This document shows, piece by piece, positions 3,921 through 27,105 of a stretch of DNA of 64,000 bases. The first letter of the stretch is position 1. The number at the start of each line of letters is the position of its first letter. A program made the translations under genes and the position numbers. Under the pieces are notes generated by a model, which searched no databases, had not been told where the DNA came from, and saw only the letters and a program-made list of their open reading frames with translations. Source of the DNA: Octopus vulgaris (taxonomy: Eukaryota); contig OX597841.1 of assembly GCA_951406725.2 (NCBI GenBank), positions 13,330,001 to 13,394,000 on the forward strand, read 5' to 3'.

Positions 3921-3929
3921 TATAGATAT

Positions 3930-3975
<46 letters not shown>

Positions 3976-4749: not shown

Positions 4750-4787
<38 letters not shown>

Positions 4788-4945: not shown

Positions 4946-5404
4946 AGAGTCCAGAAGCTGGCTACCTGCATGGTTCATGGTTTCAAAAATTTGTCCTATG
5001 AAGAAAGGCTGAGGACGGTCGACCTTTATTCTCTAGAAAAACGCCGCCGCCGTGGTGATCTCATTCTCGCTCACAACATCATAAGTGGAAAGTGTAACCT
5101 CTCGAAAGAGCTGTTCTTCAATCCTGCTCCAGAGCGTCGACTGCGGGGTCATTCCGAAAAGCTCTACCTGCGACGATTTCGTCTCAATCGAAGGAGAGGA
5201 GCTTTCTCCGTCCGGGTTGTGGATCCGTGGAATAAGCTGCCAGATGAGATGGTGAAGATGCCGACGACCGCTTTGTTCAAAGTCTCCCTTGACCACATGT
5301 GGCCTGAACTCTTTACATGAACACCACCCTGTACTTAACTCCATGTCCCCCTACATGGCCTTGCTATTTGCTTTTGAGCCAAATTAACTAACTAACTAAC
5401 TAAC
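4946..5404 (+). mobile_element. CR1-clade LINE 3' fragment (ORF2 C-terminus, 3' UTR, (AACT)n tail)
   Basis: LSYEERL..LYSLEKRRRRGDLI...RGHSEKL...FSVRVVDPWNKLP, typical of the CR1 ORF2 end; tail aactaactaac. Confidence 0.9.
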
Positions 5405-7409
5405 ATATACTTGTCAACTAAGTGTGGCGTCCTATACAGGACAGGACTACTGACGTTTATAGCCCCAGGAAAATGTGCCCCAGCATGGCCACGGCCTTTG
5501 GGCTAAAACGATTTAAGGATTTATATATATATATAGGTGCAAGAGTTGCTGTGTGGTAGGTAGCTTGCTTACCAACCACATGGTTCCTGGTTCAATCCTA
5601 CTGCGTGGCACCTTGGGCAAGTGTCTACTATTATAGCCTCAACCCGACCAAAGCCTTGGGAGTGGATTTGGGTGATGGAAACTGAAAGAAGCCCATCCAT
5701 CTGCTTGACAACCGATGTTGTGTTTACATCCCCATAACTGGTTCGGCAAAAGAGACTGATGGAATAAGGCCTAGGGTCAACGATGAATAAATCCCGAGGT
5801 TGATTTGTTCAACTGAAGGCGGTGCTCCAGCATGGCTGCTGTCAAATCACTGAAACAAAAAGGGGGTGGGAAACCAGTACCAGTATTGATTTCTTTGACT
5901 AAAACTCTTAAAGGTGGTGCCCCAGCATGGCCACAACCTAACTGAAACAAAAGATAGAAGATAAAATTAGATGGAATTTGAATACAGGGGAGTGGTACTT
6001 GGCCTTTTATGTGTTTTTTGCTTTTTGTTCTCCGCACTGAATCAAACTGAATGATATTAACGCACTGGAGTTTGTAAAGAATGCTTAGAATTTCAGGAAA
6101 CGGGAGTGGAGACCCTTTTCCTCTCTTTCACTTTGCCTCACTCCCTCCACGTTTACGCACATGCACGCAGGTACACACACACACACTAATATATGCATAC
6201 ACACACACCCACACACTACACACACTCCCACACACACACAGAGCAGCATAAATAGGTTAAGTTTACAAACTAGTTGGATAAATAACATAAATATTGAAGG
6301 TTTCTCGTGTGTGTGGGGGGGGGTGGATGTGTGTGTGTGTGTGTGCGTGGATGTGTGTGTGTGTGTGTGTGTGCATGGACGTGTGTGTGTGTGGGTGGTG
6401 GTGGATGTGTGTGTGTGTGTGTGTGCTTGGATGTGTGTGTGTGTGTGTGTGCTTGGATGTGTGTGTGTGTGTTCATGTGGACGTGTGTGTGTGGATGTGT
6501 GTGTGTGCATGGATGTGTGTGTTCATGTGGACGTGTGTGGATGTGGATGTGTGTGTGTGTGTGTATGGATGTGTATGTGTTCGTGTGGACGTGTGTGTGT
6601 GGATATGCAAGTGGATGTGGGTGTGTGTATACGCACATATGTGCATGCATGTATAATATATGTGTGTACGTGTGTCTTCTCCATCAGTTCATAAGTAAAT
6701 ATTTGTTAGTTAATTATTTAATTAAACTTCAACGAATCCGGTTTCTTAAAATTCTTTCTGTTATCTTCATTAGCGCTGAGTTATCCCGTTGCCAGGATCA
6801 TTGCAGCGTTAAGCAAAATACCTTGTGGTATTTAATTATGGACCTTTCTGTTCTGAGTTCAAATCCAGTGCAGGGAGATTTCCATTCATCTGTTCACGTT
6901 CCTCTCTGTGTCATCATTAAGGGATATCATTAATAAATATCCTAGAAACAGCTGTAAGACCTATCTAGAAATGCTCTAATATCTATACAGCCTTGGGGTT
7001 TTTTTTATCTCATTACGCAAAATATTCTTATATATACATATATATTTGTATATACATATAGATATATATAACTTGACATAAAAACAAGCCTTTGTGTGTG
7101 TGTGTGTTTTGGTGATAGCTAAAAGGGAGAAGTACTCAGTACAGGAGGTGGAGTATAGCTATTAAATTTCATTTGGTTGAATGCACAATTATTAGATTTG
7201 TGCCATCTGACTGGGTCGTACACTACACGAAAATCTCATCTCGTTGAGATGTGATACAGATGGCATCAACCAGATTCATATCTATGTGGGTTTCTGAGGT
7301 TATTACACATAGATTGTGTGTGTGTGAGAGTTTGTGGGCAGTTGCCAAACTGAATGAGAGCAGCAATCCTCTCGCTTGCAATGTTATTCAACTTTGGGTG
7401 ATGTGACGT

Positions 7410-7444
<35 letters not shown>

Positions 7445-7574
7445 TCATCTTGTTCAAAACTTAGCTGTTGGCATCATGTGTGTGTGTTAGATAACCAGAG
7501 AGGTATGTGGCCTGTTTTGTGTGTGTGTGTGTAGTGAGAGAGAGAGAGAGAGAGAAAGCTAGCTATGTGTATAG

Positions 7575-7626
<52 letters not shown>

Positions 7627-8902
7627 CTGTGCATGTCTATTGTTTTATATATTACATATTTATACACACACACACACACACATGTATAGCTAAATATATA
7701 TATATATATCTATATCCTCTCTCTCCTCTCTCTCTATATATATATATATATACACACGCACATATGTATCCATAGCTATGTTTGTGTATGTATATATTCC
7801 TCTGTGTGTGTTTATGTGTGTTGATGTATTTATGTATGTGAATATATTTATATATATATAACCACACACACACACACACATATATACACACACTGATTTT
7901 CATCTTGATTCAGAACTTTGCTCTTTCTCTCTACCTAATGCTACGTATTAAATAAATAGCTCTGCATACACACACACATATATATAACACATGTACACAT
8001 ACATATACGCATACATGTACATACCTCCATACACACATTAAATAAATAGCTATGCATACACATGATATGTACATACACACACACACACACATATAATGCA
8101 TGTACACATACACACACACACACACATAATGCATGTACACATACATATACACACATGTACTCATACATGTACACACTTCCATGCACATACACACACATAT
8201 GCCAACGTAGAGGAACCTGGACATTAAATGATGACTGTGTGTGTGTCCTTGTCCATATTTGTCCCCATTCTATGCTCCATATCAACCCCTTAAATATATT
8301 GGAGTCTTAGAAATATTCACTCTTTTCGTTTATGATGTCGAGCACAAAAAAAAAAAGAAACCCATCTGTTTCTAAAACCAAACCCCTTTCCTTGACCCTT
8401 CCTCCTTTTTGGCAAAGTGACTGTACACAAAATGTACTGTTGCCATGGTTACAACATGAAATAGTTCTACTCAACCCTTGTGGTACCAACCCACCTGAGA
8501 CCACCACTCCTGGTTCTAAACTTCCTGATCTAGATTTAAACCTATCAAAAATCTCGTCAGTTTGTGCCAAACACCAAATTAAATAACGATGAAATTAATT
8601 CCCTAAATTCTTAATTTTCCAAATTAGTTGAAATGAAGGTCATGGATTTTAACAGAAATATGGTTGTAAAAGGGTTGAACTTTGTTTGCCAGGACTAAAC
8701 TGGGGTCAACTCCTTAGATACCAATCTACTTTGGACCACCACTCCTGCTTTTAAGATACAAACTTCTTGTCCGTATACATGTGTGTAGTGTCTTTATGTG
8801 TGTGTGTGTCTGTGTGTGTGTAGATGTGTCTATGTGTGTGTGTAGATGTGTCTGTATATGTGTGTGTAGATGTGTCTTTGTGTGTGTGTGTGTAGATGTC
8901 TT

Positions 8903-8933
<31 letters not shown>

Positions 8934-11499
8934 GTCTTTATGTGTGTGTGTAGATGTGTCTGTATGTGTGTGTAGATGTGTGTGTCTATATATTTGCGTG
9001 TATACACATAGGAGTCTGTCTGTCCGTCTTTGGTATAGACAAGAAACAGTAACTTATGTTCAAAGATAGTCTATAAATTATCTGAAGACACCCCATCACA
9101 CCCACCCATCCATGCCCCTCCAGCGTTAATAAACCATTGTCCATTATACGCAAAACCTCCCTTCCATCACAGACCACCACTTTATAAACATTGCGCAGTT
9201 TTCTTTCATAAAAATAGTTTTTATCTGTTGCCGACCAAAAAGAATTCTTCGTGAAAAACAGCTTCAGAACCGTTCTGGATTTTGGTTTAATTTTGGACTT
9301 GGTTCTTCAGTCTGTAACAAGATATCTGGTTTCTTCAGGTTTCCAAAACTGGCATCGCTTTATCTGTTATCTTTAATTTGTTTCAGTCATTGGACTGTGG
9401 CCATACTGGAGCAATGCCTTGAAGAATTTTTTAGTCAAACGAATCAATTCCAGTCTTTATTTTTTTGTTTTTCCTTTAAAGCCTGGCACTCTTTCTGTTG
9501 GTCTTGCTTTGCTGAACTAAGTTACAGGGATGTAAACAAACCAACACTGAACCTGGAACTATGTGGTTGAAAAGCTAGCTGTGTGACTGTTTCAGGTGTG
9601 TGTGTGTATGCATTCATGTGTATGTGTTTCTATGTATGTATATATATATATATGCATGTTTGTGTATGTATGTTTCTGTGTATATGTGTGTATGTATACA
9701 TGTATTTGTGTATATTTTGATTGTAGGTGTATACATACATATATATACTCACACACCAACCTCAATATCACAATCAAATCAAATAGAAATTGTAGTTGTG
9801 ACCCCCCCCCCCATGCCGATAGCACGTAAGAAGCACCATCCAATTATGGTTGATACCAGCTCCTCTGGCCCCTGTGCTGGTGGCACATAAAAGCACTCAC
9901 TACACTCATGGAATGGTTGGCATTAGGAAGGGCATCCAACTGTAGAAACCTTGCCAGATCAGATTGGGGCTTGGTGCAGCCTCCTGGCTTCCCAGACCCC
10001 AGTCGACCCGTCCAACCCATGCCAGCATGGAAAACGGATGTTAAACGATGATGATGATGACACCCCCCACCTATCCTGGTCTTGATGATGTCATTACCCC
10101 TTTTCCCTATTTCCCTTCCTTGATCACCTGACCAAACTGTATGTGACCCAATTTTTGAGCATATTGAGTTCCCTCATTGTTATACCCTTCCTTAATCGCA
10201 CCTTTCTGCTCTTCCTGCTTTCATTCTTTTCTCTCTTGACCCCTTCCTTTGCCCACACAGCTTACATTACCGAGTACCTGATATATTGTGTGAAAGGCTC
10301 CCCCCCCCCCCCGTCTTACAACACAGGTGCTGCCATAGTGACACCAATGCTCACCACCAGCACTAGCAATCCCTCCTCTCAGCACCACCACTGAGCTGCC
10401 CGTCCAGTGATTGGTGTCCTCAACGACCTCTCTAGAGCTGGCGTTGGGGGGGGGGGGGGCTACACCAAACACCAACTGCAAAGTGGCTGGTTAAACGAAC
10501 AGAGAAAGTGTAAGGTCATGTGGTGCCCCTAGGCTTGTTTCACTGCGGACTAGTTAAGCTTTGTTTTCTACTCTAGGCACAAGGTCCGAAATTTTGGGGG
10601 AGGGAACTAGTCGATTAGACCAACCTCAGTACACAACTGGTACTTAATTTATTGACCCTGAAAGGCAAAGTCAACCTCGGTGGAATTTGAACTCAGAACA
10701 TAAAGGCAGATGAAATACCGCTAAGCATTTCGCCCTGCATGCTACCATTTCTTTTCTACTCTAGGCACAAGGCCTGAAATTTTTTGGGAGGGGACCAGTC
10801 GATTGGATCGACCCCAGTACTTAATTTATTGAACCTGAAAGGATGAAAGGTAAAGTTAGCCTTGGCAGAATTTGAACTCAGAACATAATGGGAGAGACAA
10901 TACACTAGTTAGGCTTTCTGTTGGTAGCACGAGGGGAAGAAAAAACCACCTTGTAGTGGATATTGGATGTCTGGGGGCAAAAATGGATTGGACAGTCAAG
11001 GATGGAAAGTCTTTGATCCATGAGCCTGCTTCATCTGGACTGACCTGGGGCTAAATGAAAACAACTGCTGCTATGTATGGTCAGACAAATACACCCTCAC
11101 CACAACCATTGGAACCTATATGTGGTTTCTCAGTTTGCTAGAAAGAGCAGTGAAATGTCCAAATAAGATTTGTCTACCATTTTAAGAAAATGACTTAGCA
11201 GTTTGGCTTAGAGATTGACAGAATATTTTTTAAATCATCCTTGGTTAATTGTTGACCAAAGTGTTGTACACTCGGGGAACCAGAGATTAACAGAGATTAA
11301 GAGCAGACTCTTATTGTATTGTTTATCAATGTCCTACACCTTCCTTGCCACTCTTATCCAACCCTCTCATGACATTCTCCATCCTTTGTGTTCTTTGCCT
11401 GCCCCTTCATCTGCTGCCCTCTATCCTTCCTTCCTTCCTTCCATTCGGTTGCAAGAGCAGTCGAGGTTATTTCAGATAATCTCATTTTAAAAATCATCT

Positions 11500-11570
11500 C
11501 CGGCTAATCATTGAGAGGACATTGGTGTTGCCCTGGCGGAGGTTTGCGCTCTCTGAGTGCTCTTGCTATT
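11500..11570 (+). mobile_element. Helentron/Helitron-like terminal fragment
   Basis: ctggcggaggtttgcgctctctgagtgc resembles a common Helentron-type end motif (from memory). Confidence 0.35.
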
Positions 11571-11586
11571 ATTGTTATTATTATTT

Positions 11587-11934
11587 ACTCTTTTACTTGT
11601 TTCAGTCATTTGACTGCGGCCATGCTGGAGCACCACCTTTAGTCGAGCAAATCGACCCCAGTACTTATTCTATCGGTCTCTTTTGCCGAACCGCTAAGTG
11701 ACGGGGACGTAAACACACCAGCATCGGTTGTCAAGCAATGCTAGGGGGACAAACACAGACACATATATATACGATGGGCTTCTTTCAGTTTCCATCTACC
11801 AAATCCACTCACAAGGCATTGGTCGGCCCGGGGCTATAGCAGAAGACACTTGCCCAAGATGCCACGCAGTGGGACTGAACCCAGAACCATGTGGTTGGTA
11901 AACAAGCTACTTACCACACAGCCACTCCTGCGCC
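11587..11934 (-). mobile_element. SINE family 1 copy
   Basis: Reverse complement of family 1, inserted in an (ATT)n tract. Confidence 0.85.
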
Positions 11935-12125
11935 TATTATTGTTATTATTATTATTATTCTGAACTCACCTCCTTCAAGTATGACCAAAACAGATGAGTT
12001 TTTGTTTATCTGCATTGTTCAGCTGTTCTCGCCTTTCCCCTTCTTGTCGTAACACTTGTCCATTTGTCCGATGGCCCTGCTGACACACAACATCCTCCTA
12101 TGCACTCACACCTCAAACACATTGC

Positions 12126-12346
12126 TTAACCCTTTAAGCATTCAGACTTCTTTGTGAAATTTATTGCTTATTTAATTCCTACTGTTTTGAATTAATCACA
12201 GATTATTTTGTGACTTCAAAAATTTAAATGGTGTGGTTATATATTTTTAAAATGACATTGTAGGGTTGGTGTGAGAGGTTGGATCCAGACAGTTTTAACA
12301 TAAAACAGGTGGAATATTTGGGCCAGATTAAATGCTAAAGGGTTAA
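12126..12346. mobile_element. Second TTAA-flanked MITE family
   Basis: ttaaccctttaagcatt...aatgctaaagggttaa. A related copy at 41653-42152 is split by a SINE (41726-42025). Confidence 0.65.
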
Positions 12347-12384
12347 TGTTCTCTTCAAATCTGTTCAAAGTCCAACCATAAAAG

Positions 12385-12570
12385 CTTTCAGGCCAAACAA
12401 GTGCTTGCGCCAGCCTTGTTTCTCAATGAGTTGGGACACCTTTTGCCGTTCCAGATGTTATTAAGCTTTTCCATGGACGTTCTTGCCATGGCTAACCATG
12501 TCCACCTGTCTTTCTTCTGTGTGGCTTCATCAAACATTTGATCTCCAACATACTTGTACAACTCAATCTG
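12385..12570 (-). mobile_element. Degenerate RTE LINE fragment
   Basis: YKYVG...LAMARTSMEKLNNIW resembles the post-RT region of RTE. Confidence 0.5.
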
Positions 12571-14219
12571 TTCAAGTATTTGTTTCAGACTGTGGCCATG
12601 CTGGGGCACCACCTTGAAGAGTTTTAATCAAAAAATCGACTGCAGGACTTATTTTTTTTTTAAGCCTGGTACTTATCAGTCTATTTAGCTGAACTGTTAT
12701 GGGGATGTAAACACACCAACATTGGTTGCTAAGTGGTGATGAAGTGACACATCGATATATATATATACATATACATATGATGGGCTTCTTACAGTTTCTC
12801 TCGACCAAATCCACTCAGGTTTTGGTTGGCTTGAGGCTATAGTAGAAGAGACTTGACCAAGGTGCCACAGAGTGAGACTGAACCCAAAACCAAGTGGCTG
12901 GAAAGCAAGCTTCTTACCATAACAGCCACGCCTGCACCTAAAAAAAAATCTTGTGACACCCTCCAGAAGCTGAAACTCAGGATTGAACAGAAGACCTTTA
13001 GATCTTCAGCCTAATGCTGTCCCAAATGAGCTATTTTGTCTCATTGAAGCCCATCATACATATATATTTATGGAAGTGATTTTAAATTCTCAAAATACAG
13101 GATAATGCTAATAATATAGCCTGAACAGGATAAGCTACCCCTATTTTGCAGGGAAAAGTGTTGGCGGCTATGAGACTCGAACTCACACCTCTGTGATTAC
13201 ATGTCATGATGCTCTGATCCAAGTGTCTCATATATGTCTGTCTGTCTGATTGTCCTTTAACGTCCATTGTCCTTACTGGCATGGATTGGATGGTTTGACT
13301 GGGCTGGCATGCTGGAAGGCTGCACCAGGTTCCAGTCTGATTTGGCATGGTTTTCTACAGCTGGATGCCCTTCCTAATGCCAAACACTCCGAGAGTGTAA
13401 TTGGTGCTTTCAGGTTCCACTGGCACAACACCTGGGTGAATTTACGTGCGACCGGCACAGGTGCCAATTTGCATGATACCCATTATCTGTCACAACTGCA
13501 ATTCTGCTCTGTTTGATGGGTCTTCACACACACACACACACACACACACAATGGGTTTCTTTCAGTTTCTGTCTATGAAATCCACTCGCAAGGCTTTGGT
13601 CGGCACAAAACTATAGTAGAGGACATTTGCCTGAAGTGCCACAGCATGAGACTGAATCCAGAACCATGCGGTTCGGAAGCAAGCTTCTTACCACCCAGCC
13701 ATGCCAGCCACCTAACATGTATTTTCTCTTTTCCACGAATTTTGTTTTTCTTATTCTTGACAAACCAGAAATATCACACACAAGATAAAAAAAACAAACC
13801 CACCCTCATGGCCGATGCTACGCACCCCGAGTCTTTGCAGATGGGGCTCACTTCTGTTTGTCCCAGCATCTGGTTAGAATCTGCGGACATGATGTTGTTG
13901 GTGCTGTTATTCTCGTTAGCTCTGTCGCTAATGCAACGAAGACAGTTTGGTAATTACTTAAATAGGGAATGACATATTTTAGTGCAGTAGGTCAAACGTT
14001 TATAATTAATTAAAAATTGCTCTGTGGGTGGGGATGGGAAATATGAAAGAGGGGGTGGGGGACTGGGAAAAATAAGCTCGAAGAAGGGAAATGGTTGTTT
14101 GGTTAATAAGTTTGCTTCTTAAGCAAGTGGTTCAGTCCCACTGCGTGGCGCCTCGTCTTGGGCAACTGTCTTTTACTGTAGCTGCCAGGGTCAACCAATT
14201 CCTTGTGAGCAGATTTTTT

Positions 14220-14490
14220 TGTGTGTGTGTATAGGTACAGTTGTGTGTGTGTGTGTAGGTACAGCTGTATGTGTGTGTGTGTATAGGTACAGCTGTGTGT
14301 GTGTGTATAGGTACAGGTGTGTGTGTATAGGTACAGGTGTGTGTGCTGTGTGTATATAGGTACAGCTGTGTGTATATAGGTACAGCTGTGTGTGTGTGTG
14401 TGTGTGTAGGTACAGCTGTGTGTGTGTGTGTGTATAGGTACAGCTGTGTGTGTGTGTGTGTGTATAGGTACAGCTGTGTGTGTGTGTGGT
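14220..14490. repeat. Minisatellite ataggtacagct(gt)n
   Basis: About 10 variable-length units. Confidence 0.9.
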
Positions 14491-15929
14491 AAGTAGGTCT
14501 GTGGAGTCGAAGCCAAACACTCCGACTCCCCTCCTACTCACACCTCTGACTCCAACTCCTCTTTATGTCTTAATTGATTCTGCTCTACATCTCTCATGAA
14601 GCAAATTGGGAATCAGAGTCAGTATAGTTTTACTGACTCTGACTCCCACGGCCATATGGATCTTGGTTCAGTCCCACTGTGTGGCACCTTGGGCTGGTGT
14701 CTTTTCCTATACCCCTGGGCTGACCAAAGCCTCTATGAGTGGATTTGGTAAATGGAAACTGAAAGAAGCCTACTCTGTGTGTGTGTGTATATATATATAT
14801 ATATACTACACTCATGGAGTGGTTGGCACTACACTCATGGAGTGGTTGGCGCTACACTCACGGAGTGGTTGGCGATAGGAAGGGCATCCAGCCGTAGAAA
14901 CATTGCCAGATCAGACTGGGCCTGGTGCAGCCTCCTGGCTTCCCAGACCCCAGTTGAACCATCCAACCCATGCTAGCATGGAAAGCAGACGCTAAATGAT
15001 GATGATGATATATATGTGTGTGTGTGTATGGGGGGGCAATAAAGAAATAAATATCTACTAAAACTCATCCGTTTGTCGAGATCATTGACCTTGTTTTTTT
15101 CACTGACTCACAGCAGGTCAAATTAAATCCTATTTCACTTTTTATTTCCATCCAATGTTTTTCGTTTGCATCATTTGTTGTTTATCTTCTTGAAGCTCTC
15201 TCCCGTCCTTCCCTGGATACAGGCTGGGTGCATTCTGACATGTGGCTGCCACCCCACCCTCATCACATGACATCCTACTTACTGCGTTCTGTTAGTTTGT
15301 TTATATTCTATAAAATTTAAGAAATAGGAGCCAGCATGGTTGTGTGTGTGGGTGTGCATGTGTGTGTGTGTGCAGGATTGGCTGTGGGGTTAAGAAGCTT
15401 GCTTCCCAACCACAGGATTTTGGGTTCAGTTCCACTGTGCACCCCTCTGAAGTGTCTTCTAATAACCTCAGGCTGACCTCATGAATGGATTTGGTAGACG
15501 GAAACCTAATCCATTCATCAGGCTTCGATCAGCTCAAGGCTATAATAGAAGACATTTAGCCAAAGGGCCACGGAGTGGGACTGAACCTGGAACCATGTGG
15601 TTGGGAGCTAGCTACTTACCACACAGCCATTCCTGTGCCTATAATATATATATGACGGGCTTCTTTCAGTTTCCGTCTACCAAATCCACTGACAAGGTTT
15701 TGGTCAGCCTGTGGCTATATTAGAAGACACTTGCCCAAGGTGCCACGCAGTGGGACTGAACCCAGAACCATGTGGTTGGGAAGCAAGTAGCCATACCTGA
15801 CAATGACAAATCCCTTAACCCCTTGGGAGCATGGTGGGGCAGAGCACTGTAGCCATACAGTGTGTCTAGGGTGAGAAAGCCTGGCGGAATCCATCCGTCT
15901 CCAGGCTAAACTCATATATATATATATAT

Positions 15930-15972
<43 letters not shown>

Positions 15973-16049
15973 TACACATATACACACTTTTGTCTTTTAC
16001 TCGTTTGTCATTAGACTGCACCTGTCTATATAATTAATATTTCTATTAT

Positions 16050-16154
16050 CTAATTCGTTTTCCTTTTCTTTCTTTTACAGGTGAGTACATCCAATTGGCT
16101 CTTCCCTACCTTTTATTAATTCCGTTCTCCTTTTTACACATGGAATCGGTGAGT
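16050..16154 (+). other. Candidate recursive splice site (ratchet point) with a 68-nt RS-exon
   Basis: Branch-like CTAAT at 16050, pyrimidine tract ttcgttttccttttctttctttt, acAG|GTGAGT at 16080/16081, and a second donor cg|GTGAGT at 16149. Confidence 0.55.
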
Positions 16155-16339
16155 TTTTCCGGTTTGTTTGTTTACCAAAAGACTATAATAATTTGTTTGA
16201 AGCACTGCAGTATATGTATACGAGACAAGCGTTTGACAAAACATCTTCTGAGCAAGTAGGAAGTTGGAAGTTAGGTAAACTAATACGAGGCAATGTCTAT
16301 AATGAGAAAAGGTATTGTTTTACTTTGTTACGTCTGGAA

Positions 16340-16572
16340 GTGAGTCATTCTGTGTTAATGCTTTATTAATTAACACACTCACTGGTTTGATTTCCACTCG
16401 CTTACTTTTTGTTTTTTTTTACTAATTTTCATTGCTTCTTGCAACTTCTTCAATAGTTGTAGGCTCTGACCGTTGTAGGAGCCTCGTTCTTTTTCTCAAT
16501 AAATAAGTAAATGAGTGGAAACTGAACCAGTGTGTGTGTTAATTAATAAGGCATTAAAACAGATTGACTCTC
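16340..16572. repeat. Fold-back inverted repeat (~65-bp arms)
   Basis: gagtcattctgtgttaatgctttattaattaacacactcactgg...ccactc versus gagtggaaactgaaccagtgtgtgtgttaattaataaggcattaaaacagattgactc. Confidence 0.8.
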
Positions 16573-16639
16573 CCCAGACACAACAAAATATGCTTCAACA
16601 CACAAATTTAGAATCTTGCAAATATTGTTTTACCTTATA

Positions 16640-17042
16640 ATAATGAAATTATTGTGTATAGTGCTCAGGTGCACTACAGCTTATTAAAGGTGTATGTACA
16701 GTACATAGAATTATGTACAAAAGTCAGGAGTGCATGCGTATGGAGTGGGGTGGGAATATCAGATTTTGTGTTGGTGAATTTCGGGAAGCATGGAGGATTT
16801 AAAGGATTCAGTGTCTCGGCAACTAACAACTGATGCAGGTAGTTTGTTCCATGCTTCAGCGACTCTGAGTGTGAAGAAATGTTTCCGAAAGTCAAGGGAG
16901 CTGTGCTGTTTCCTGACTTTGTAGGGAATGCCCACATGTGTTGGACACATGGAGCTCAAAAAGGTGAAGGAGGTGGTTGTTGGTGCGATGGTTAATAATT
17001 TTATGGGTGTTTACCAAATCAGCTGCCAGACGTCGGAGCATC
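16640..17042 (-). mobile_element. CR1-like LINE 3' fragment (second family)
   Basis: LRRLAADLVNTHKII and RKHFFTLRVAEAWNKLPASVV...FKS across frameshifts. Confidence 0.8.
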
Positions 17043-17255
17043 AATGGTCGCAGCCAAGTGACTGAAACAAGTAAAAGAATATGATTTATAGACACATAGG
17101 TGTGGCTGTGTGGTAAGAAGCTTGCTTCCCAATCACATGGATCCAAGTTCAGTCTCATTGGATGGCACCATGGGCACGTGTCATTTATTATAGCCTTGGG
17201 CCAACCCAAGCCTTGTGAGTGGATTTGGTAGATGGAAACTGAAAGAAGCCCACTA

Positions 17256-17287
<32 letters not shown>

Positions 17288-17288
<1 letters not shown>

Positions 17289-17612
17289 CATCATCATCAT
17301 CATCATCATTTAGCGTCCGCTTTCCATGCTAGCATGGGTTGGACGGGTCAACTGGGGTCTGTGAAGCTGGAAGGCTTCATCAGGCCCAGTCAGATCTGGC
17401 AGTGTTTCTACGGCTGGATGCCCTTCCTAACGCCAACCACTCCGTGAGTGTAGTGGGTGCTTTTTACGTGCCACCTGCACAGGTGCCAGACAGAGCTGGC
17501 AAACGGCCACGAACGGATGATGCTTTTACGTGTCACCGGCACAGGGCCAGGCGATGCTGGCAACGGACACGAACGGATGGTGCTTTTACGTGCCACCGAC
17601 ACGGGGCCAGAC
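17288..17612 (-). mobile_element. Short retroelement family 2 with an RTE-type (GAT)n tail and internal tgcttttacgtgccacc repeats
   Basis: Signature ggcgttaggaagggcatccagccgtagaaac...catgctagcatggaaagcggacg(t/c)taaa(c/t)gatgatg. Further copies at ~1490-1730, 9820-10060, 13250-13470, 14805-15010, 19500-19970, 20800-21140, 50880-51340, 52020-52205 and 61403-61590. Confidence 0.75.
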
Positions 17613-17617
17613 AGAGC

Positions 17618-17655
<38 letters not shown>

Positions 17656-20600
17656 TACACACGGGTGTCCCTCAGCACAGCTTGACGAACAGTGTTGGTT
17701 TGTTTACATCCTTGTAATTTAATGGATCAGCAAAAAGAAGTCTGATAGAATGAGCGCCAAGCTTAGAAATGTTCCTGGGGGTCAATTCATTTGACTAAAG
17801 TCTTGAAGATGGTGCCCCAGCATGGGCAAAGTCCTATGAATGAAACAAGATATTTCATGTTTTATGCTCTGTATGTGTACATGCGCGCGCGCGTGTGCAT
17901 GCATGCATGCATCTAGTATACACACAAATATATCTGTGTATAGACTTACAGATATGTATATGCATTTATATACATATGCATTTATATATATATATACACA
18001 CACTTGTATATGTGTATGCACTTTTATACACACACACACACACACGTGTATATACACTCACACACATTCATTTATATATGTATGTGTGTGTATATATATA
18101 CATACACACACATACGTGTATATATACTTATACAGGTATATATGTATGCACACATACCCACTCATATATATATTCACATACACACATGTGTATATACATT
18201 TATATATGTATATATTATGCACGTTTATAGTTAAAGATATATATATGTACATATATACATACACACACACACACACACATTAGCTGCTTGTCTTTATCGT
18301 CCGTGTGATAACCTTTTTAAACATAATTTAATCTCAAATGCCATTCCTGTGTGTGTGCCTGCCTTATCTTCGTAACAGACTGCCACAGAATTCGACTATA
18401 AACAAGAATGGAAGTCTTAGAGAGCAGCGCCTGCAGAGAATTCCTACATTTGGTAAAGTGAATCAACTCAGAGAAGTGTCGGTTCTACGTGGTCGTAGGA
18501 TTTGCTGGAAATAGCAGTGAAATCTTTCTCGTATCATACATTGCTGTATTACAATAGGAGGAGGAAAAAAAGAGGAATGATGTGTTTGATTAATGTAGTC
18601 CTAGATAGGCTATGCCTTAATAAAAGATGGGCTGGTCATGGCTGGAAAGCTTTTACTTGTTTGTCATTTGACTATGGCCATGCTGGTGCACTGTCTTTAG
18701 TTGAAGAAATTGACTCCAGGACTTATTCTTTGTAAGCCTAGTACTTATTCTATCAGCCACTTTTGCTGAACTGCTAAGTTACAGGGATGTAAGCACACCA
18801 ACATCAGTTGCCAAGTGATGGAGGGGGGTGCAAACATATACACACACGTGTGTGTGTGTGTGACAGGCTCCTTTTAGTTTCCGTCTACCATATTCACTCA
18901 CAAGGCTTTGGTCAGCCCGAGGGTATAGTAGAAGACACTTGCCCCAGGTGCCATGCAGTGGGACTGAAACCGGAACCACGTGGTTGGGAAGCAAGCTTCT
19001 TTCCACACAGCCACTCCTGTGCCTTTGATTAAGATCTGAAAAGATGGTCATATTTGGAGGTCTGCTGGATCAGGACTGGTCTTAGAGGTAAGGTACCAGA
19101 AATGACACATTGGATTATGTAGTCCTAGATGCACTATGCCTTAACAACAGATGGCGTGGTCAAGGCTTGGACATACTTGATTGGTCCACTCAGGATTGCT
19201 GTATTCATCATCATCAAATGTGCGTAGCTCTGTTCTCCGTGTTGGAATGGTTGGATGCCCTTCCCTATGTCAACCAGTTTACAGAGTGGACCGGGTGGTT
19301 TTTTTTCTGTGGTACCAGCACCTGTGGGGGTCACCAAGTAAGTAGCAAGACAAAGCCCCTTGACTGAGAGGGGGGGGGGGGTAGTATTTAGGGAGGTGGC
19401 TTTTGTGCCAGTTGATGAGGGGTTAAAAGAATGAGGGAGAGAGAGAGAGAGAGAGAGATAGGGGTCTTGCTGTAGAAGAGATGCAAGGGTCCCCCAGTTG
19501 GAGAAGAGCTGCCATGGGTTGAGCAGTTTGACAGGAACTGGCAATGCCTGGAGCCACACCAGGTTCCATAATCTGTTTGGCATAGTTTCTACAGCTGGAA
19601 GCCCCTCCTTATGCCAACCACTTGACAGAATGTACTGGGTGCTGTTTATGTGGAACCATCAACAGTGCTTTTTTACGTGGCACCAGCACTTTTCCATATG
19701 GCACCATCAGCAGTGCCTTTTCTGTGGCACCATCACCAGTGCTTTTTTTAAGTGGCACCGTCAGCAGTGCTTCTTATGTGGCACCAGTGCTTTTTACGTG
19801 GCACCTGCACGAGTGCTTTTTTAAGTGGCACCACCACCAGCATTTTATGTGACACCAGCACCAATGCTTTTCAGGTGGCACCATCACCAGCACTTTTTAC
19901 GTGGCTCCAACACCAGCGCCATTCACCAGTGCTTTTTACATGGGTCCAGCATCAATGCCAATGCATCTTGTGTGGAACCTAGATTTTAGGATATCAGTTT
20001 TGTTAAATGGACAAAAAAAAGCAGAGCTGACCTCATGGAGATCTGAAGAAGAAGAAATACCGGCCGACTCAGTGCTGTTCAACGGCGTCTGATTCCTTAC
20101 TATCAACCCCAGCACTTTTATCAATTCTGGAACAACGAAAAGTGAAGTTGACCTCAGCAACAACAACAATAATAATAATAAACACTGCTGTTAACGAAGA
20201 TACGATGGCATTAAACTGTTAAGTGCAGGAGGAGATAAAACGAGATTTGAAAGAGATAAAATAACTTATTTAGGTTTTGAGGTCTTGTCGGAGATGTTTA
20301 AATTAGAGTTACTGAATTTTTGCCTGGTATTTCTGGTGGTGGAGGGCTGACTGGGGTGGTGTTGCTGGGTACTTGAAGGGTGGATACCAACTGGAGTTTC
20401 TAGAATTCTTTTGGAATTCTACAGATAGACTACATATTTTTAAGAGGAGGGTTTGAATTTTAGGGATTTTGTTTTGAAGATATTTCTGTTTCATTCGGGT
20501 GGGGTCCTTATACACACTCACACATACACGTGTGTGTATATACACACACATAGAGAGAGAGAGAGAGAGGGAGAGAGGTTTGCTTCCCAACCACATGGTT

Positions 20601-21156
20601 CTGGGTTCAGTCCCACTACGTGGCACCTTGAGCAAGTGTCTTCTACTATAGCCTTAGACCAACCAAAGCCTTGTGAGTGGATTTGGTAGATGGAAACTGA
20701 AAGAAGCCTGCTGTGTGTGTGTATGTATGTATGTATGTATGTGTATATACATATATATATATATACATACATTATATATATATAAAGTACCTTTGAATCG
20801 TTGAGATTGTAGTGGGTGCTTTTTATGCGCTACTAGCACGGGAGCCAGTCAGTCGGCACTGGCATCGGCCATGTTCAGATGGTGCTCTTTACGTGCTACC
20901 AGCACAGTAGCCAGTCGCGGCAGGAGGCTGCACCAGGCTCCAGTCTGATCTGGCAGTGTTTCTACAGCTGGATGACCTTCCTAACGCCAACCACTCCGTG
21001 AGTGTAGTGGGAGCTTTTTACATGCCACAGGCACGGAAGCCAGTTGAGGTGGGGCTGGCATCGACCACGTACGGATGGTTCTTTTTACGTGTCAGGGGAG
21101 GCTGGCAACGGCCACGATCGGTGGGTGATTTTTACGTGATTTATATATCATATTTA

Positions 21157-21478
21157 TGTATAACCTCTCGAAAGAGCTGTTCTTCACTCCTACTCCAGAG
21201 CGCCGGCTGCGGGGTCATTCTGAAAAGCTCTATCTGCGACAATTTCATCTCAATCGAAGGAGAGGGGCTTTCTTCGTCTGGGTTGCAGATCCGTGGAATA
21301 AGCTGCCGGACGAGATAGTGAAGATGCCGACGACCGCTCGGCTCAAAGTCTCCCTTGACCACAAGTGGCCTGAACTCCTTACATGAACACCACACTGTAC
21401 ATAACTCCATGTCCCCCTACATGGCCTTGCTTTTTGCTTTTTGAGCCAAAAAATTAACTAACTAACTAACTAACTAAC
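21157..21478 (+). mobile_element. CR1-clade LINE 3' fragment (same family)
   Basis: Homologous to 5095-5404, with an (AACT)n tail. Confidence 0.9.
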
Positions 21479-22202
21479 ATATACATCATATTTATATATA
21501 TATATCATATTTATATCCACATATGTACGTATCTGTGTGAAACGAAAGATCTCAGATGTGACTAACATAAAAATAATTTCAAACTTCTCCAAGAATGTCG
21601 ATGTCTTAGCGATATATTTCCTTCTTGGCGTTTATCAGATGTCTGCCTCCAGTTGCATGGTATCCTGTCTGCATCCGATGCTGCTGCTGCTGCTGCAAAG
21701 AACGGTTGCTCAGTGTTCGCTTCAGCTCTGGCAAAAGGGAAATACCATGCGAGAATTTCAGTAGAAAGTTGATGGTGGTGGTGGTGGGCGGTGTCATGGT
21801 TGTTGTGGAGGTGGTGGTAGTGGTGGCTTTTGTGGAGGTGGTGGTGTCAGTAATTGTGGTAGTGGTGGACATGATGGTTGTGGTGGAGAAGTGGTGGTGG
21901 TCATCTTCAGTTGTGGAGGTGGTGTTGGTGGTAGTTGTGAAGTGGTGGCATTGGTGTGGTTCTTGTGAAGGTGTTGGTGGTAGTGGTAGCAGTGGTGGTG
22001 GTAGTTGTGGAGGTGGTGGTTGTAGTCACAGTGGCTGTTGTGGTGGTTGTTACAATGGTGTTGGTGATAATTGTGATGTTGGTGGTGATGGTGGTTTTCT
22101 CACCAGTGATGGTTGTAGTGGTAATTACTACTACTTGTGGTAATGATGGTTTGTTAGTAGTGGTGGTCATGGCATTAATTATACTGATGTCAGTAGTGGT
22201 GG

Positions 22203-22251
<49 letters not shown>

Positions 22252-22254
<3 letters not shown>

Positions 22255-24995
22255 GTATGTAGAAAAATACAACATGGACAAGAACGTATAACTCTTAGAA
22301 GACGACACAATAAACACAGACAGGACATTCGAAACCCTCAGTCTTCAGTCAAGAACCGGATCATCGTAGTAATTTCGGCTGATTAATCTTGAGATTACTA
22401 GATCACGGCCAGCCCTCCAAGAAAAACAAGCAACGAGCATTAGAAAAACTAAGCTGGAAGCGTAGATTTCCTGGAAGAAGGATCGAATGCATACGAACAC
22501 CAGGACAGCAAAAGGGACAGATATAAAAAAAACAAAAAACAATAATGGAATACAGAAACATGAAATACAGAAGCATTAACGGTGAAAACAACGGTGTCTT
22601 ACGACTGATAACAAGCAAACAAATTTTTTCTCTGGCGCAATGGAAAAAGCCTTTATAGTGGCGGACGAAAACAGCGATGTTAACAGAACGAGGGTCAGAG
22701 GCTGAAAGGCAGATTTCGGCCAACAGTCACGTGACAGAGAAGAGGGAAAAGAAAAGAAAGAGAAGCAAAGGAAGAGAGAGAGAGAGGAGGGACAAACGCA
22801 ACAAAGAGAGAGAAGAGAGAGAAAGAAGGAATCAGAGAGGAGAAGGGATGGGTGTCGAAGAATGACCTGTGAGTGCAGAGCGAGACAAAGAAATAGGAGG
22901 GTAGTGGAAGACTAGACCAAAGAATCAGAGGAAAGAGAAGAGAAAAAGAGGATGAGTAGAGAGAAAAGAGAGAGAGGGGGACAGATCAAGTAAAAATGAG
23001 AGAGAGAGAGAGAGACAAACAGAGAGTCGTACCAATTATTAAGAATATGTGCTCACATAAATGTTAAGGGGGGTACGGGGCGCCTGGAATATATGTTAAG
23101 GTATGTAGAAAAATACAACATGGACAAGAACGTATAACTCTTAGAAGACGACACAATAAACACAGACAGGACATTCGAAACCCTCAGTCTTCAGTCAAGA
23201 ACCGGATCATCGTAGTAATTTCGGCTGATTAATCTTGAGATTACTAGATCACGGCCAGCCCTCCAAGAAAAACAAGCAACGAGCATTAGAAAAACTAAGC
23301 TGGAAGCGTAGATTTCCTGGAAGAAGGATCGAATGCATACGAACACCAGGACAGCAAAAGGGACAGATATAAAAAAAACAAAAAACAATAATGGAATACA
23401 GAAACATGAAATACAGAAGCATTAACGGTGAAAACAACGGTGTCTTACGACTGATAACAAGCAAACAAATTTTTTCTCTGGCGCAATGGAAAAAGCCTTT
23501 ATAGTGGCGGACGAAAACAGCGATGTTAACAGAACGAGGGTCAGAGGCTGAAAGGCAGATTTCGGCCAACAGTCACGTGACAGAGAAGAGGGAAAAGAAA
23601 AGAAAGAGAAGCAAAGGAAGAGAGAGAGAGAGGGAGGGACAAACGCAACAAAGAGAGAGAAGAGAGAGAAAGAAGGAATCAGAGAGGAGAAGGGATGGGT
23701 GTCGAAGAATGACCTGTGAGTGCAGAGCGAGACAAAGAAATAGGAGGGTAGTGGAAGACTAGACCAAAGAATCAGAGGAAAGAGAAGAGAAAAAGAGGAT
23801 GAGTAGAGAGAAAAGAGAGAGAGGGGGACAGATCAAGTAAAAATGAGAGAGAGAGAGAGACAAACAGAGAGTCGTACCAATTATTAAGAATATGTGCTCA
23901 CATAAATGTTAAGGGGGGTACGGGGCGCCTGGAATATATGTTAAGGTATGTAGAAAAATACAACATGGACAAGAACGTATAACTCTTAGAAGACGACACA
24001 ATAAACACAGACAGGACATTCGAAACCCTCAGTCTTCAGTCAAGAACCGGATCATCGTAGTAATTTCGGCTGATTAATCTTGAGATTACTAGATCACGGC
24101 CAGCCCTCCAAGAAAAACAAGCAACGAGCATTAGAAAAACTAAGCTGGAAGCGTAGATTTCCTGGAAGAAGGATCGAATGCATACGAACACCAGGACAGC
24201 AAAAGGGACAGATATAAAAAAAACAAAAAACAATAATGGAATACAGAAACATGAAATACAGAAGCATTAACGGTGAAAACAACGGTGTCTTACGACTGAT
24301 AACAAGCAAACAAATTTTTTTCTCTGGCGCAATGGAAAAAGCCTTTATAGTGGCGGACGAAAACAGCGATGTTAACAGAACGAGGGTCAGAGGCTGAAAG
24401 GCAGATTTCGGCCAACAGTCACGTGACAGAGAAGAGGGAAAAGAAAAGAAAGAGAAGCAAAGGAAGAGAGAGAGAGAGGAGGGACAAACGCAACAAAGAG
24501 AGAGAAGAGAGAGAAAGAAGGAATCAGAGAGGAGAAGGGATGGGTGTCGAAGAATGACCTGTGAGTGCAGAGCGAGACAAAGAAATAGGAGGGTAGTGGA
24601 AGACTAGACCAAAGAATCAGAGGAAAGAGAAGAGAAAAAGAGGATGAGTAGAGAGAAAAGAGAGAGAGGGGGACAGATCAAGTAAAAATGAGAGAGAGAG
24701 AGAGACAAACAGAGAGTCGTACCAATTATTAAGAATATGTGCTCACATAAATGTTAAGGGGGGTACGGGGCGCCTGGAATATATGTTAAGGTATGTAGAA
24801 AAATACAACATGGACAAGAACGTATAACTCTTAGAAGACGACACAATAAACACAGACAGGACATTCGAAACCCTCAGTCTTCAGTCAAGAACCGGATCAT
24901 CGTAGTAATTTCGGCTGATTAATCTTGAGATTACTAGATCACGGCCAGCCCTCCAAGAAAAACAAGCAACGAGCATTAGAAAAACTAAGCTGGAA
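22252..24995 (-). mobile_element. Tandem array of an ~845-bp non-coding retroelement-like unit (3 full copies plus a 208-bp partial) inserted in (TA)n; Penelope-pLTR/retrozyme-like
   Basis: Units start at 22252, 23098, 23943 and 24788 and are almost identical. (TA)n lies on the left, and atatat plus GAT/GTG-rich host sequence on the right. The terminal 208 bp are homologous to dispersed TA-flanked copies at 34.2 and 39.4-39.9 kb. No credible ORF. The array is directly visible; the class assignment is inference. Confidence 0.85.
22332..22414 (-). ncRNA. Hammerhead-like motif with non-canonical strand order (repeated at 23178-23260, 24023-24105, 24868-24950)
   Basis: Minus strand reads GUAA-UC-UCAAGA-uuaau-CAGCC-GAAA-UUAC...UCUUGA-CUGAAGA-cugag-GGUU. 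Stem I is UCAAGA/UCUUGA, stem III is GUAA/UUAC, and the triplet is AUC. Confidence 0.4.
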
Positions 24996-25383
24996 ATATA
25001 TGATGTTGATGAAGTTGTTTAACTTTCGGTTTCCCTATCAAGGGCAATCCAACATTGACCATCCTGTCTGTGTGTATCAAGGAATATATTGCACAATCTA
25101 CTCATGATAGATTAAGATTGGTGGTTGGGGTTTAAGGGAGGTTTCACTGCTATTTCTAGGAAGGTGAGTGACTGCATACAGGCCGTCATCACGATGGTGG
25201 TGGTAGATATGGATGCACACACACACATGTTCATATACACATTCATATACATGTGTGTGTATATAATTTAGAAATGGAATAAAATCTTTATAAGAATTTA
25301 TCAAGTAGTCAGTGTGAAAAACCTCATAAGAGAAAAAAAACACCAGTTTTTTCACTTAAATATATTTATTTATATGTATGCCC

Positions 25384-25433
<50 letters not shown>

Positions 25434-25481
25434 GTGTGTGTGTATATATAATCCAAATAACACAGATACAGGTATCTACAT

Positions 25482-25528
<47 letters not shown>

Positions 25529-26574
25529 CAAATATATATACGTTTATATACATACATGGAGATATATACAAAAGTTTATATATGTATGTACGTGTATCAA
25601 CATTGTCTATATTCATACCCATAGAACACATGTATACGTATGTGTATATAGTTACGTGTGTATGTGTGTATATATATATAAACAGATGCAATACATACCT
25701 GTGTACCTGTGTACCTGTATATATATAGATATACATTTATGTATATATACACATATACTTAGTGTGTATGGAGGAGGAGGAGGAAGAATACCAATGCTAA
25801 GAATACCATTGGCATTTGTAGAAGTATGTCAGTGTTTGTTGTAGTAGAAGTAGTAGCAGCAGTGGTACCTGGGGTGGTGGTGGTGGTGGGGTGAATGACA
25901 AACCTCCAGATACAGCGCCCCTCCCCTCTAACACACTAGAGCAACACCTACAGACCGTCTGAGGAACCAGCAGTTGCATCCATTTTTAGGCTTTTTATAT
26001 ACTGTGGGGTTGTGTGTGTGTGTATGTGTATTTGTGTATGGGTGTGTGTGTAATGTATTTATGTATGGATGCTTGTATATATGCGTGTGGTTGTGTGTGT
26101 GTATGTGTACTTGTGTATGATGCTTGTATATATGCGTGTGTGTGTGTGTATATGTATTTCGTGCTAGCGCGGAAAACGGACATTAAGCGATGATGATGAT
26201 GATGTATGGGTGTGTGTGTGTATTCACTCTGGTTCTATGTTGGTTGTGATCGACGAGGGTTTTCAGTTCGTCCGAACAACGGAACAGCCTGCTTGCGAAA
26301 TTAATGTGCAAGTGGCTGAGCGCTTCACAGAAATGCGTGCCCTTAACATGCTTAATGTAGTTCTCGGGGAGCTTCAGCGCAATGCAGCATTTGACGAGGC
26401 TGGACCCTTGTGAATTACAGGTACAACTCACTTTTGGCAGATGAGTGGACTGAAGCAACGTGAAATAAAGTGTCTTGCTCAAGGTCACACTGCACCACTG
26501 GGAATTGAACCCACGACCTTACAATCATGAGACTAATATCCTAACCATGAAGCCCTGCATCTGTGTGTGTATAA

Positions 26575-26657
26575 TAGGGGGTGTTGAAAAGATCCTGGCT
26601 TTGGGTAAAAGAAAATAGAGGAGGATCAGTTAATTATGACTTTATTCAACATATTCA
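26575..26657 (-). mobile_element. Mariner 3' terminal fragment (same family as 37700-37862)
   Basis: Reverse complement matches 37779-37860. Truncated by a SINE at 26661. Confidence 0.65.
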
Positions 26658-26660
26658 ACA

Positions 26661-26822
26661 GACGTAGGAGTGGCTGTGTGGTAAGTAGCTTGCTAACCAA
26701 CCACATGGTTCCGGGTTCAATCCCATTGCGTGGCATCTTGGGCAAGTGTCTTCTACTATAGCCCCAAGCCGACCAGAGCCTTGTGAGTGGATTTGGTAGA
26801 CGGAAACTGAAAGAAGCCTGTC

Positions 26823-26900
<78 letters not shown>

Positions 26901-27105
26901 CTGTGTGTGTGTCTGTGTTTGTCCCCCTAGCATTGCTTGACAACCGATGCTGGTGTGTTTACGTCCCCGTCACTTAGCGGTTCAGCAAAAGAGACCGATA
27001 GAATAAGTACTGGGCTTACAAAGAATAAGTCTCCGGGTCGATTTGCTCGACTAAAGGTGATGCTCCAGCATGGCCGCAGTCAAATGACTGAAACAAGTAA
27101 AAGAG
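26661..27105 (+). mobile_element. Full-length tRNA-derived CORE-type SINE (family 1, octopus OR-like); the most abundant repeat in the window
   Basis: A box tggctgtgtgg, B box gggttcaatccc, CORE-like cttgggcaagtg, internal (TA)n/(TG)n, tail gaaacaagtaaaagag. About 25 full or partial copies, e.g. 960, 4520, 5535, 9360, 12575, 13550, 14660, 15370-15790, 17095, 18650, 20575, 27455, 34440, 41726, 48985, 53715. Confidence 0.85.

What the first reader, a model, noticed from the sequence alone, without database searches (positions are those of the whole stretch)
16050..16154. Textbook recursive-splicing site with a cryptic RS-exon, 42.7 kb upstream of the talin start exon
Seen: branch-like CTAAT, an almost pure ~25-nt pyrimidine tract, CAG immediately followed by the consensus donor GTGAGT, and a second GTGAGT 68 nt later, all in non-repetitive sequence on the talin strand. 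Established: AG|GT ratchet points followed by a cryptic exon define recursive splicing in long Drosophila and vertebrate introns. Inference: a long talin 5' intron is removed stepwise. I am not aware of this being described in cephalopods.
Basis: partly seen in the sequence, partly recalled or inferred. Interest (0 to 1): 0.7.

Follow-up and report, generated by a model that had tools for sequence, protein, structure and literature searches.

The report
Octopus talin recursive-splicing stepping stone
A fused intron-end/intron-start signal lies 43 kb before the coding start of an octopus talin gene, is conserved in a relative and belongs to a genome-wide excess of such signals, so this very long first intron is likely cut out in three steps, as flies do, although no RNA junction was available to show it.

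Summary
The motif is real: branch-like CTAAT, a 22/23 pyrimidine tract, CAG|GTGAGT at 16080/16081 and a second GTGAGT 68 nt on. It is single-copy and conserved in a relative (1 of 46 positions changed versus 28 of 245; p=0.04). Genome-wide the strict motif occurs 81 times against 12, 12 and 23 for controls. The class has acceptor anatomy, the fly TT signature and excess donors about 58 nt downstream, and neighbouring sites are co-oriented (12 of 12). A second site lies 38.7 kb upstream. With a candidate first exon, chosen after the fact, the two sites cut a 123-kb intron into 42.0, 38.7 and 42.7 kb. A coding-defined 292-kb RasGAP intron holds three sense-strand sites and none antisense. Best reading (0.72): a Drosophila-type ratchet point with a cryptic RS-exon. 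No junction, saw-tooth or lariat evidence could be obtained, and the first exon is inferred. Main rival: an exon that is often included in the 5' UTR. No cephalopod report was found in the open library, but such enrichment is published for insects and sea urchin, and this scan's earlier unchecked notes flagged the same class in octopus. New member of a known kind; interest 0.5.

The parts
16050..16054 (+). Branch-point-like CTAAT (putative branch A at 16053)
   Evidence: Sequence. A branch-like YTRAY motif is enriched at -46..-20 in the motif class, 41 of 77 versus 18% background. Use as a branch point is inferred.
16054..16080 (+). Polypyrimidine tract and CAG acceptor, with TT at -6/-5
   Evidence: 22 of 23 pyrimidines. 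Acceptor score 11.8; 3 of the 32 talin acceptors used for training score higher. One pyrimidine-to-pyrimidine change in organism D and none listed in organism C.
16081..16086 (+). Ratchet-point donor GTGAGT fused to the acceptor
   Evidence: Sequence; unchanged in both relatives laid.
16081..16148 (+). Candidate 68-nt RS-exon; contains an ATG at 16140 that would open a 20-codon upstream ORF if the exon were included
   Evidence: 5 of 68 positions differ in organism D, not significantly fewer than elsewhere (p=0.29).
16149..16154 (+). RS-exon donor GTGAGT (TCG at -3..-1)
   Evidence: Hexamer unchanged in both relatives, but -1 G>A in organism D. Score 2.3 on the talin-trained matrix, weak.
1..58786 (+). 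In-window part of the inferred talin 5' UTR intron. It continues upstream of the window, where a second ratchet-like site (G000:C28:13307356, 22.6 kb before the window) and a candidate first-exon donor (G000:C28:13265321, 64.7 kb before the window) lie
   Evidence: T>A skew like known talin introns, no convincing host coding exon found, start exon has its own acceptor. Inferred; no RNA support.
58787..59035 (+). Talin start exon: 107 nt of 5' UTR, ATG at 58894, F0 domain; it has its own acceptor, so an upstream exon must exist
   Evidence: acceptor score 8.5.
16321..16610 (.). Flanking high-copy inverted-repeat element; not part of the splice signal
   Evidence: 69-nt arms, 86% complementary; 3369 first-look candidates genome-wide.

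Best explanation
The site at 16080/16081 is likely a recursive-splicing ratchet point, the second of two that would divide a roughly 123-kb talin 5' UTR intron into three pieces of about 40 kb. Inferred mechanism: the 68-nt segment is defined as an exon between the strong acceptor and the donor at 16149. The upstream exon, already advanced to the site at -22644, is spliced onto 16081. This rebuilds a donor from the upstream exon's last bases plus GTGAGT, and that donor is spliced to the start exon at 58787, discarding the 68 nt. Shown: the motifs, their spacing, conservation and class statistics. Inferred: the first exon, every splicing step and skipping of the RS-exon.
For: (1) Class excess: 81 versus 12, 12 (permuted) and 23 (reversed), or 77 after collapsing a 5-copy repeat family; 200 versus 58 and 65 with a shorter tract. 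(2) The class has acceptor anatomy: branch-like motif 41 of 77 versus 18%, unbiased -4 base, TT at -6/-5 in 64 of 77 versus 10 of 24 controls, p=1.6e-4. (3) Downstream donor scoring >=4 within +20..+140 in 24 of 77 versus 111 of 1617 windows, p=9e-10; at threshold 3 the median distance is 58 nt and lengths mod 3 split 10/9/8; intron-like composition. (4) Neighbours within 300 kb are co-oriented in 12 of 12 pairs, versus 48 of 99 beyond 700 kb. (5) A 292-kb intron bounded by adjacent nGAP coding exons holds 3 strong sense-strand sites and 0 antisense. (6) At this site organism D differs at 1 of 46 positions (branch to +6) versus 28 of 245, p=0.037; longest near-invariant run 95 nt, permutation p=0.002. 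(7) T/(T+A) is 0.55-0.57 in all three segments, as in known talin introns (0.53-0.57), versus 0.51 further upstream, and the nearest gene found upstream points the other way. (8) Segments are 42,035, 38,725 and 42,706 nt; P=0.0035 for random placement.
Against: No junction, saw-tooth or lariat evidence was seen. The first exon was picked after the fact among several donors, so the P value for equal thirds is optimistic. The skew change-point's best estimate was -45.9 kb (support -64.9 to -45.2 kb) and the CpG change-point was -34.6 kb. The site's own second donor scores only 2.3 and is not among the donors counted in the class test; at threshold 3 the controls also show donor excess, 9 of 24, p=0.0007. 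Flank T>A skew and AG depletion also appear in the controls. Organism C is too close to be informative (p=0.25), so conservation rests on one relative. A 44.5-kb intron of the neighbouring gene has no site, and talin's 42.6-kb intron has only a weak one without TT. The nGAP locus was chosen because it held two motif hits. About 15-28% of strict hits are expected by chance.
Confidence: 0.72

Rival explanations
1. 16081-16148 is an expressed 5' UTR exon, alternatively or mostly included. The acceptor and the second donor are used, and the GTGAGT at its start is used rarely or only for skipping, as with the Ubx m1/m2 or mammalian expressed RS-exons. Inclusion would add a 20-codon upstream ORF.
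For: If exon 1 ends in TCG, both donors read TCG|GTGAGT, so donor competition is a tie. A UTR exon has no frame constraint. The first 33 nt of the exon are invariant in organism D.
Against: Nothing but use as a donor explains the genome-wide excess of GTRAGT directly after acceptors. The second donor is weak and loses its -1 G in organism D. In flies intronic ratchet points outnumber expressed RS-exons, >500 to <50 (PMC8605326 Introduction).
Confidence: 0.14
2. The GTGAGT at 16081 is an ordinary donor at the end of an alternative first or internal exon that happens to be T-rich.
For: AG|GTRAGT is also the ordinary donor consensus. The candidate exon 1 also ends in T-rich sequence. A few class members look like exon ends or microsatellites, such as L066, L123, L065 and L084. 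One nGAP homolog starts inside the long intron, so alternative first exons occur in such introns.
Against: No excess of upstream acceptors in the class (15 of 77 versus 25% background) and no CpG excess upstream; branch-like motifs and TT at -6/-5 are enriched. Here there are only 3 CpG in -250..-46, no AG for about 65 nt upstream, and repeat fragments from about 60 nt upstream.
Confidence: 0.06
3. The motif is a chance or repeat-derived juxtaposition with no splicing role.
For: 12-23 of 81 strict hits are expected by chance. One repeat family supplies 5 hits, and another common repeat carries CCCCAG|GTCAGT. The site is flanked by repeats.
Against: Single copy, local conservation, full anatomy, a co-oriented partner site, and none on the antisense strand of the 123-kb region.
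Confidence: 0.08

Closest known systems
Drosophila intronic ratchet points with cryptic RS-exons (kuz RP1/RP2, Bx, Ubx-RP, luna; Duff et al. 10.1101/006163; PMC8605326; PMC6110457)
   Same: Tandem strong acceptor and consensus donor, TT at -6/-5, short out-of-frame RS-exon (about 50 nt in flies; median 58 nt here), conserved core, several sites per long intron, enrichment in first introns, spacing into intermediate pieces.
   Different: Segments here are 39-87 kb (7 segments in 2 loci) versus a fly median of 16.4 kb and maximum of 63.6 kb. TT is 64 of 77 here versus 196 of 197 in validated fly sites, though this set includes chance hits. No RNA validation here.
Expressed RS-exons (Ubx m1/m2; mammalian EJC-repressed RS-exons, PMC8605326 Introduction)
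   Same: Short exon starting with a donor consensus; the outcome is set by donor competition.
   Different: Those are frame-preserving or annotated exons. This one is 68 nt, lies in a UTR and is not shown to be included.
Computational RP-site enrichment in large introns of insects and sea urchin (Shepard et al. 2009, PMC2773006)
   Same: [quoted passage not shown]
   Different: No mollusc was studied there (0 hits for 'mollus'). Their control was the antisense strand of annotated introns; mine were permuted and reversed motifs genome-wide.

Membership tests
Recursive-splicing ratchet point (Drosophila type) | Strong 3' splice site directly followed by a consensus 5' splice site | tested here: met
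   acceptor score 11.8, GTGAGT
Recursive-splicing ratchet point (Drosophila type) | TT at -6/-5 and a prominent pyrimidine tract | tested here: met
   The site has TT; class 64 of 77 versus 10 of 24 controls; criterion from 10.1101/006163
Recursive-splicing ratchet point (Drosophila type) | Located on the sense strand inside a long intron | tested here: inconclusive
   For this site it is inferred from skew, the start exon's acceptor, the divergent neighbour and a candidate exon 1. Met for three sites in the coding-defined nGAP intron. No host exon was found at the C2 locus.
Recursive-splicing ratchet point (Drosophila type) | Downstream RS-exon donor a short distance away | tested here: met
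   GTGAGT at +68, hexamer conserved but weak score; class excess 24 of 77 versus 6.9%
Recursive-splicing ratchet point (Drosophila type) | Site more conserved than its flanks | tested here: met
   Organism D: 1 of 46 versus 28 of 245, p=0.037; one informative relative only
Recursive-splicing ratchet point (Drosophila type) | Junction reads from the upstream exon to the AG|GT | tested here: inconclusive
   No run on record as RNA held the site, and no joint or loose end at 16081 was seen in two low-depth guessed-RNA contig sets
Recursive-splicing ratchet point (Drosophila type) | Saw-tooth nascent RNA coverage and lariats to and from the site | not testable with these tools
   Only assembled contigs were served; no raw total-RNA reads
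Recursive-splicing ratchet point (Drosophila type) | RS-exon absent from mature mRNA; included when the ratchet donor is mutated | not testable with these tools
   No contigs laid even on the talin coding exon, so mRNA structure was not visible

The most novel reading that the evidence does not exclude
Cephalopods run a fly-like recursive-splicing system with hundreds of ratchet points, but at a pitch of about 40-85 kb, scaled to their repeat-expanded introns. In talin the final ratchet point doubles as a switch: its regenerated donor ties with the RS-exon donor, so regulated inclusion of the 68-nt exon inserts an upstream ORF that dampens talin translation.
Probability: 0.15. Interest if true: 0.72.

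Novelty: new member of a known kind. Interest (0 to 1): 0.5.

Why it matters
It would extend recursive splicing, validated in flies and vertebrates, to molluscs. It also supplies a concrete test set: the talin and nGAP introns, plus about 70 strict and 140 relaxed excess sites. Octopus introns are large and repeat-rich like vertebrate introns, which lack bulk ratchet-point enrichment (PMC2773006), so octopus can separate intron size from lineage as the driver of this mechanism. The mechanism itself is known and its wider presence in invertebrates was predicted, which caps the surprise.

Tried and rejected
RNA: no RNA holder was listed for 16010-16330. Laying X1, X2, X4 and X6 showed no joints and no loose end at 16081. 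One guessed-RNA contig (X1, depth 3) ends exactly at 16149 and another (X2) runs 15 nt across that donor; both may be DNA and come from one study, so neither is used as evidence. X1, X8, X9 and X14 gave 0 contigs on the talin start exon, which is uninformative because the tool drops human-like contigs; for the same reason the zero share in 18 species-label runs says nothing about inclusion. Promoter candidates at -67.9 kb and -113 to -105 kb were rejected as LINE fragments, and the donor at -101149 as repeat-adjacent. Origin of the RS-exon by tandem duplication was rejected (p=0.43). Repeat origin of the site: copies of the flanking element do not extend over it. A coding N-terminal extension was rejected: the exon's open frame stops in the start exon's UTR. 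Rfam gave only sub-threshold hits, mostly miRNA-like, on the flanking repeats. The site at +111371 in talin's 42.6-kb intron is weak (acceptor 4.3, no TT) and is not counted as support. The C2 locus gave two co-oriented sites but no host exon in 200 kb. The first 100 aa of the WDY-like protein could not be mapped, so its 5' end is unknown. A PDB search with the short nGAP exon found nothing.

Full report
Observation. The window lies at G000:C28:13330001-13394000 of a 2.80-Gb animal genome. Exons nearby and on C21 are identical to proteins that a source names from Octopus sinensis, so this is an octopus. Coordinates below are window coordinates; negative ones lie upstream (genome position = 13,330,000 + coordinate). 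The motif is as described: CTAAT at 16050, 22 of 23 pyrimidines, ACAG|GTGAGT at 16080/16081, a second GTGAGT at 16149 and no AG between 16015 and 16078. It is the only YAGGTRAGT in the window. The stretch 16020-16200 matched only itself, while a high-copy inverted-repeat element starts at 16321. The talin start exon is 58787-59035 and encodes FERM_f0.

More than chance? A strict pattern (18 pyrimidines, N, YAG, GTRAGT) has 81 matches genome-wide, against 23 for the reversed pattern and 12 each for two permutations of the last three bases. With 12 pyrimidines the counts are 200 against 65 and 58. Five strict hits belong to one repeat family and were collapsed to one, leaving 77. So roughly 70-85% of strict hits are in excess of chance.

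Anatomy of the class. I held all 81 hits and all 24 permuted controls with 1.5 kb of flank, and trained matrices on 32 talin junctions, two of which look mis-assigned. A branch-like YTRAY lies at -46..-20 in 41 of 77 (background 18%; talin acceptors 13 of 32; controls 5 of 24). The -4 base is unbiased (A14, C22, G21, T20). Upstream acceptors are not in excess (15 of 77 versus 25%), and CpG is not raised immediately upstream. TT at -6/-5, which marks 196 of 197 fly ratchet points (10.1101/006163, passages), occurs in 64 of 77 versus 10 of 24 controls and 16 of 32 talin acceptors. A donor scoring at least 4 lies within +20..+140 in 24 of 77 versus 111 of 1617 control windows (controls 3 of 24). 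At threshold 3 the count is 27 of 77 with median distance 58 nt and no frame bias, but there the controls are also enriched, 9 of 24. AG depletion and flank skew do not separate class from controls. Among 147 listed sites (99 of the first 100 relaxed hits on C1-C9, one tandem duplicate dropped, plus the 48 strict hits on C11-C31), neighbours under 300 kb apart share a strand in 12 of 12 pairs, versus 48 of 99 beyond 700 kb. This ties the sites to transcription units but does not by itself show recursion.

Are such sites in long introns? At a C21 locus, chosen because it held two close hits, two exons that are adjacent in a 1260-aa nGAP protein lie 292 kb apart. This intron holds three strong sites on the sense strand, the third not used in the selection, and none antisense; five permuted hexamers gave none on either strand. 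The segments are 78.9, 49.7, 86.7 and 76.9 kb. A second locus on C2 was inconclusive. Against generality, a 44.5-kb intron of the neighbouring gene has no site, and talin's 42.6-kb intron only a weak one.

The talin locus. The start exon has its own acceptor and 107 nt of UTR, so an upstream exon exists. My exon scan found no convincing host coding exon between it and a WDY-like gene on the opposite strand at -144 kb and beyond. T/(T+A) in unique sequence is 0.55-0.57 from -64.7 kb to the start exon, as in talin's known introns, and 0.51 further upstream. No unique CpG-rich promoter-like patch was seen between the site and the start exon, apart from one marginal window in a simple-repeat region at 54101. 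A second strong site, TTGCAG|GTAAGT with a donor 36 nt later, lies at -22644 and had no other genomic match over the site itself. A unique CpG-rich patch with a TGACGTCA palindrome (the CRE label is recalled) and a donor at -64679 is my candidate first exon. It was picked by eye after two other candidates proved to be LINEs, and the change-point estimates are loose (skew -45.9 kb, support to -64.9 kb; CpG -34.6 kb). With it the intron is 123,466 nt, cut into 42,035, 38,725 and 42,706 nt (P=0.0035 if random, optimistic given the selection).

Conservation. One contig of organism D spans the site with 35 substitutions and 10 gap letters in 352 nt; 29 substitutions are listed by the tool. Only one falls in 16019-16113, a T>C in the tract. 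From the branch motif to +6 the count is 1 of 46 versus 28 of 245 (p=0.037), and the 95-nt near-invariant run has permutation p=0.002. Bin depths leave no room for gaps in 16021-16164. The second hexamer is kept but its -1 base changes. Organism C is too close to inform.

RNA. No run on record as RNA held the site, no junction was seen, and the talin coding exon itself drew no contigs, so RNA neither supports nor refutes the reading.

Mechanism. Most likely (0.72), exon 1 is spliced to -22644, then to 16081, then to 58787, each step rebuilding a donor, with the 36-nt and 68-nt segments serving exon definition and then being discarded. This follows the fly model (PMC8605326, Introduction and passages; PMC6110457, passages). 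All steps are inferred. If exon 1 ends in TCG, the rebuilt donor and the donor at 16149 are both TCG|GTGAGT, so partial inclusion is plausible. Inclusion would add a 20-codon upstream ORF from ATG 16140 that ends before the talin ATG. Rivals are an expressed UTR exon (0.14), chance or repeat origin (0.08) and an ordinary exon-end donor (0.06).

Novelty. Full-text searches found 0 papers with 'recursive splicing' and 'octopus'; 1 with 'cephalopod', both terms in its reference list; 1 with 'squid' and 2 with 'mollus', unrelated by title and not read; and 0 for a five-term cross-species query. Searches were seen as listings, apart from the papers named here. The library omits most subscription papers and I read no supplements, so a mention elsewhere is possible. 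Shepard et al. 2009 (passages and Table 2) already reported computational enrichment in insects and sea urchin. Earlier unchecked notes of this scan describe the same class in octopus and other invertebrates, none at this place or sequence; they are not counted as evidence. Verdict: works like a Drosophila ratchet point and meets every sequence-level criterion I could test, with membership unproven without RNA. New member of a known kind, interest 0.5.

Noticed in passing
G000:C28:13307356 (L004:7356), + strand, 22.6 kb before the window: Second ratchet-like site, TTGCAG|GTAAGT, with a 36-nt candidate RS-exon; part of the proposed three-step removal but outside the window. Conservation not tested.
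   Followed up: partly
G000:C28:13264700-13265321 (L008:4700-5321), + strand: Candidate talin promoter and first exon: unique CpG-rich patch with a TGACGTCA palindrome and a TCG|GTAAGT donor; inferred, no RNA support.
   Followed up: partly
G000:C21:39656551-39948737 (L158-L217), - strand: 292-kb intron of an nGAP/SynGAP-like RasGAP gene with three strong ratchet-like sites at 39869799, 39820141 and 39733440; a better-anchored test case than talin because both flanking exons are coding.
   Followed up: partly
L056, L058, L075, L094, L104: A dispersed repeat family (78-87% identical over 160 nt) carries a full tract-TAG|GTAAGT with a branch-like motif, so a mobile element could seed ratchet-like sites.
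   Followed up: no
window 11044 (-) and window-relative -51829, -15839, -15743, -152613 (-): A very common repeat contains a T-rich tract followed by CCCCAG|GTCAGT or GTGAGA, a weak fused acceptor-donor, on both strands.
   Followed up: no
window 16321-16610: High-copy non-coding element with long inverted arms (69 nt, 86% complementary), thousands of first-look candidates; it could form long hairpins in pre-mRNA 170 nt downstream of the RS-exon donor.
   Followed up: partly
window 16149: A depth-3 contig of guessed-RNA run X1 ends exactly at the G of the second donor, as the 5' end of an intron would; a single contig that may be DNA.
   Followed up: partly
G000:C2:1836261 and 1882327 (L185, L190), - strand: Two co-oriented strong sites 46 kb apart in 200 kb with consistent strand skew and no recognisable coding exon, suggesting a giant unlocated intron.
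   Followed up: partly
G000:C18 and C8: All 8 strict motif hits on C18 are on the + strand and all 5 on C8 on the - strand; probably chance across some 30 large contigs.
   Followed up: no
window about 22400-24700: An approximately 846-nt unit is repeated three times in tandem (matching ORF translations at 22403, 23249 and 24094).
   Followed up: no
G000:C28:13130708-13185911 (L021-L016), - strand: WDY/WDR49-like gene head-to-head with talin; its first 100 aa could not be mapped in the 464 kb held.
   Followed up: partly
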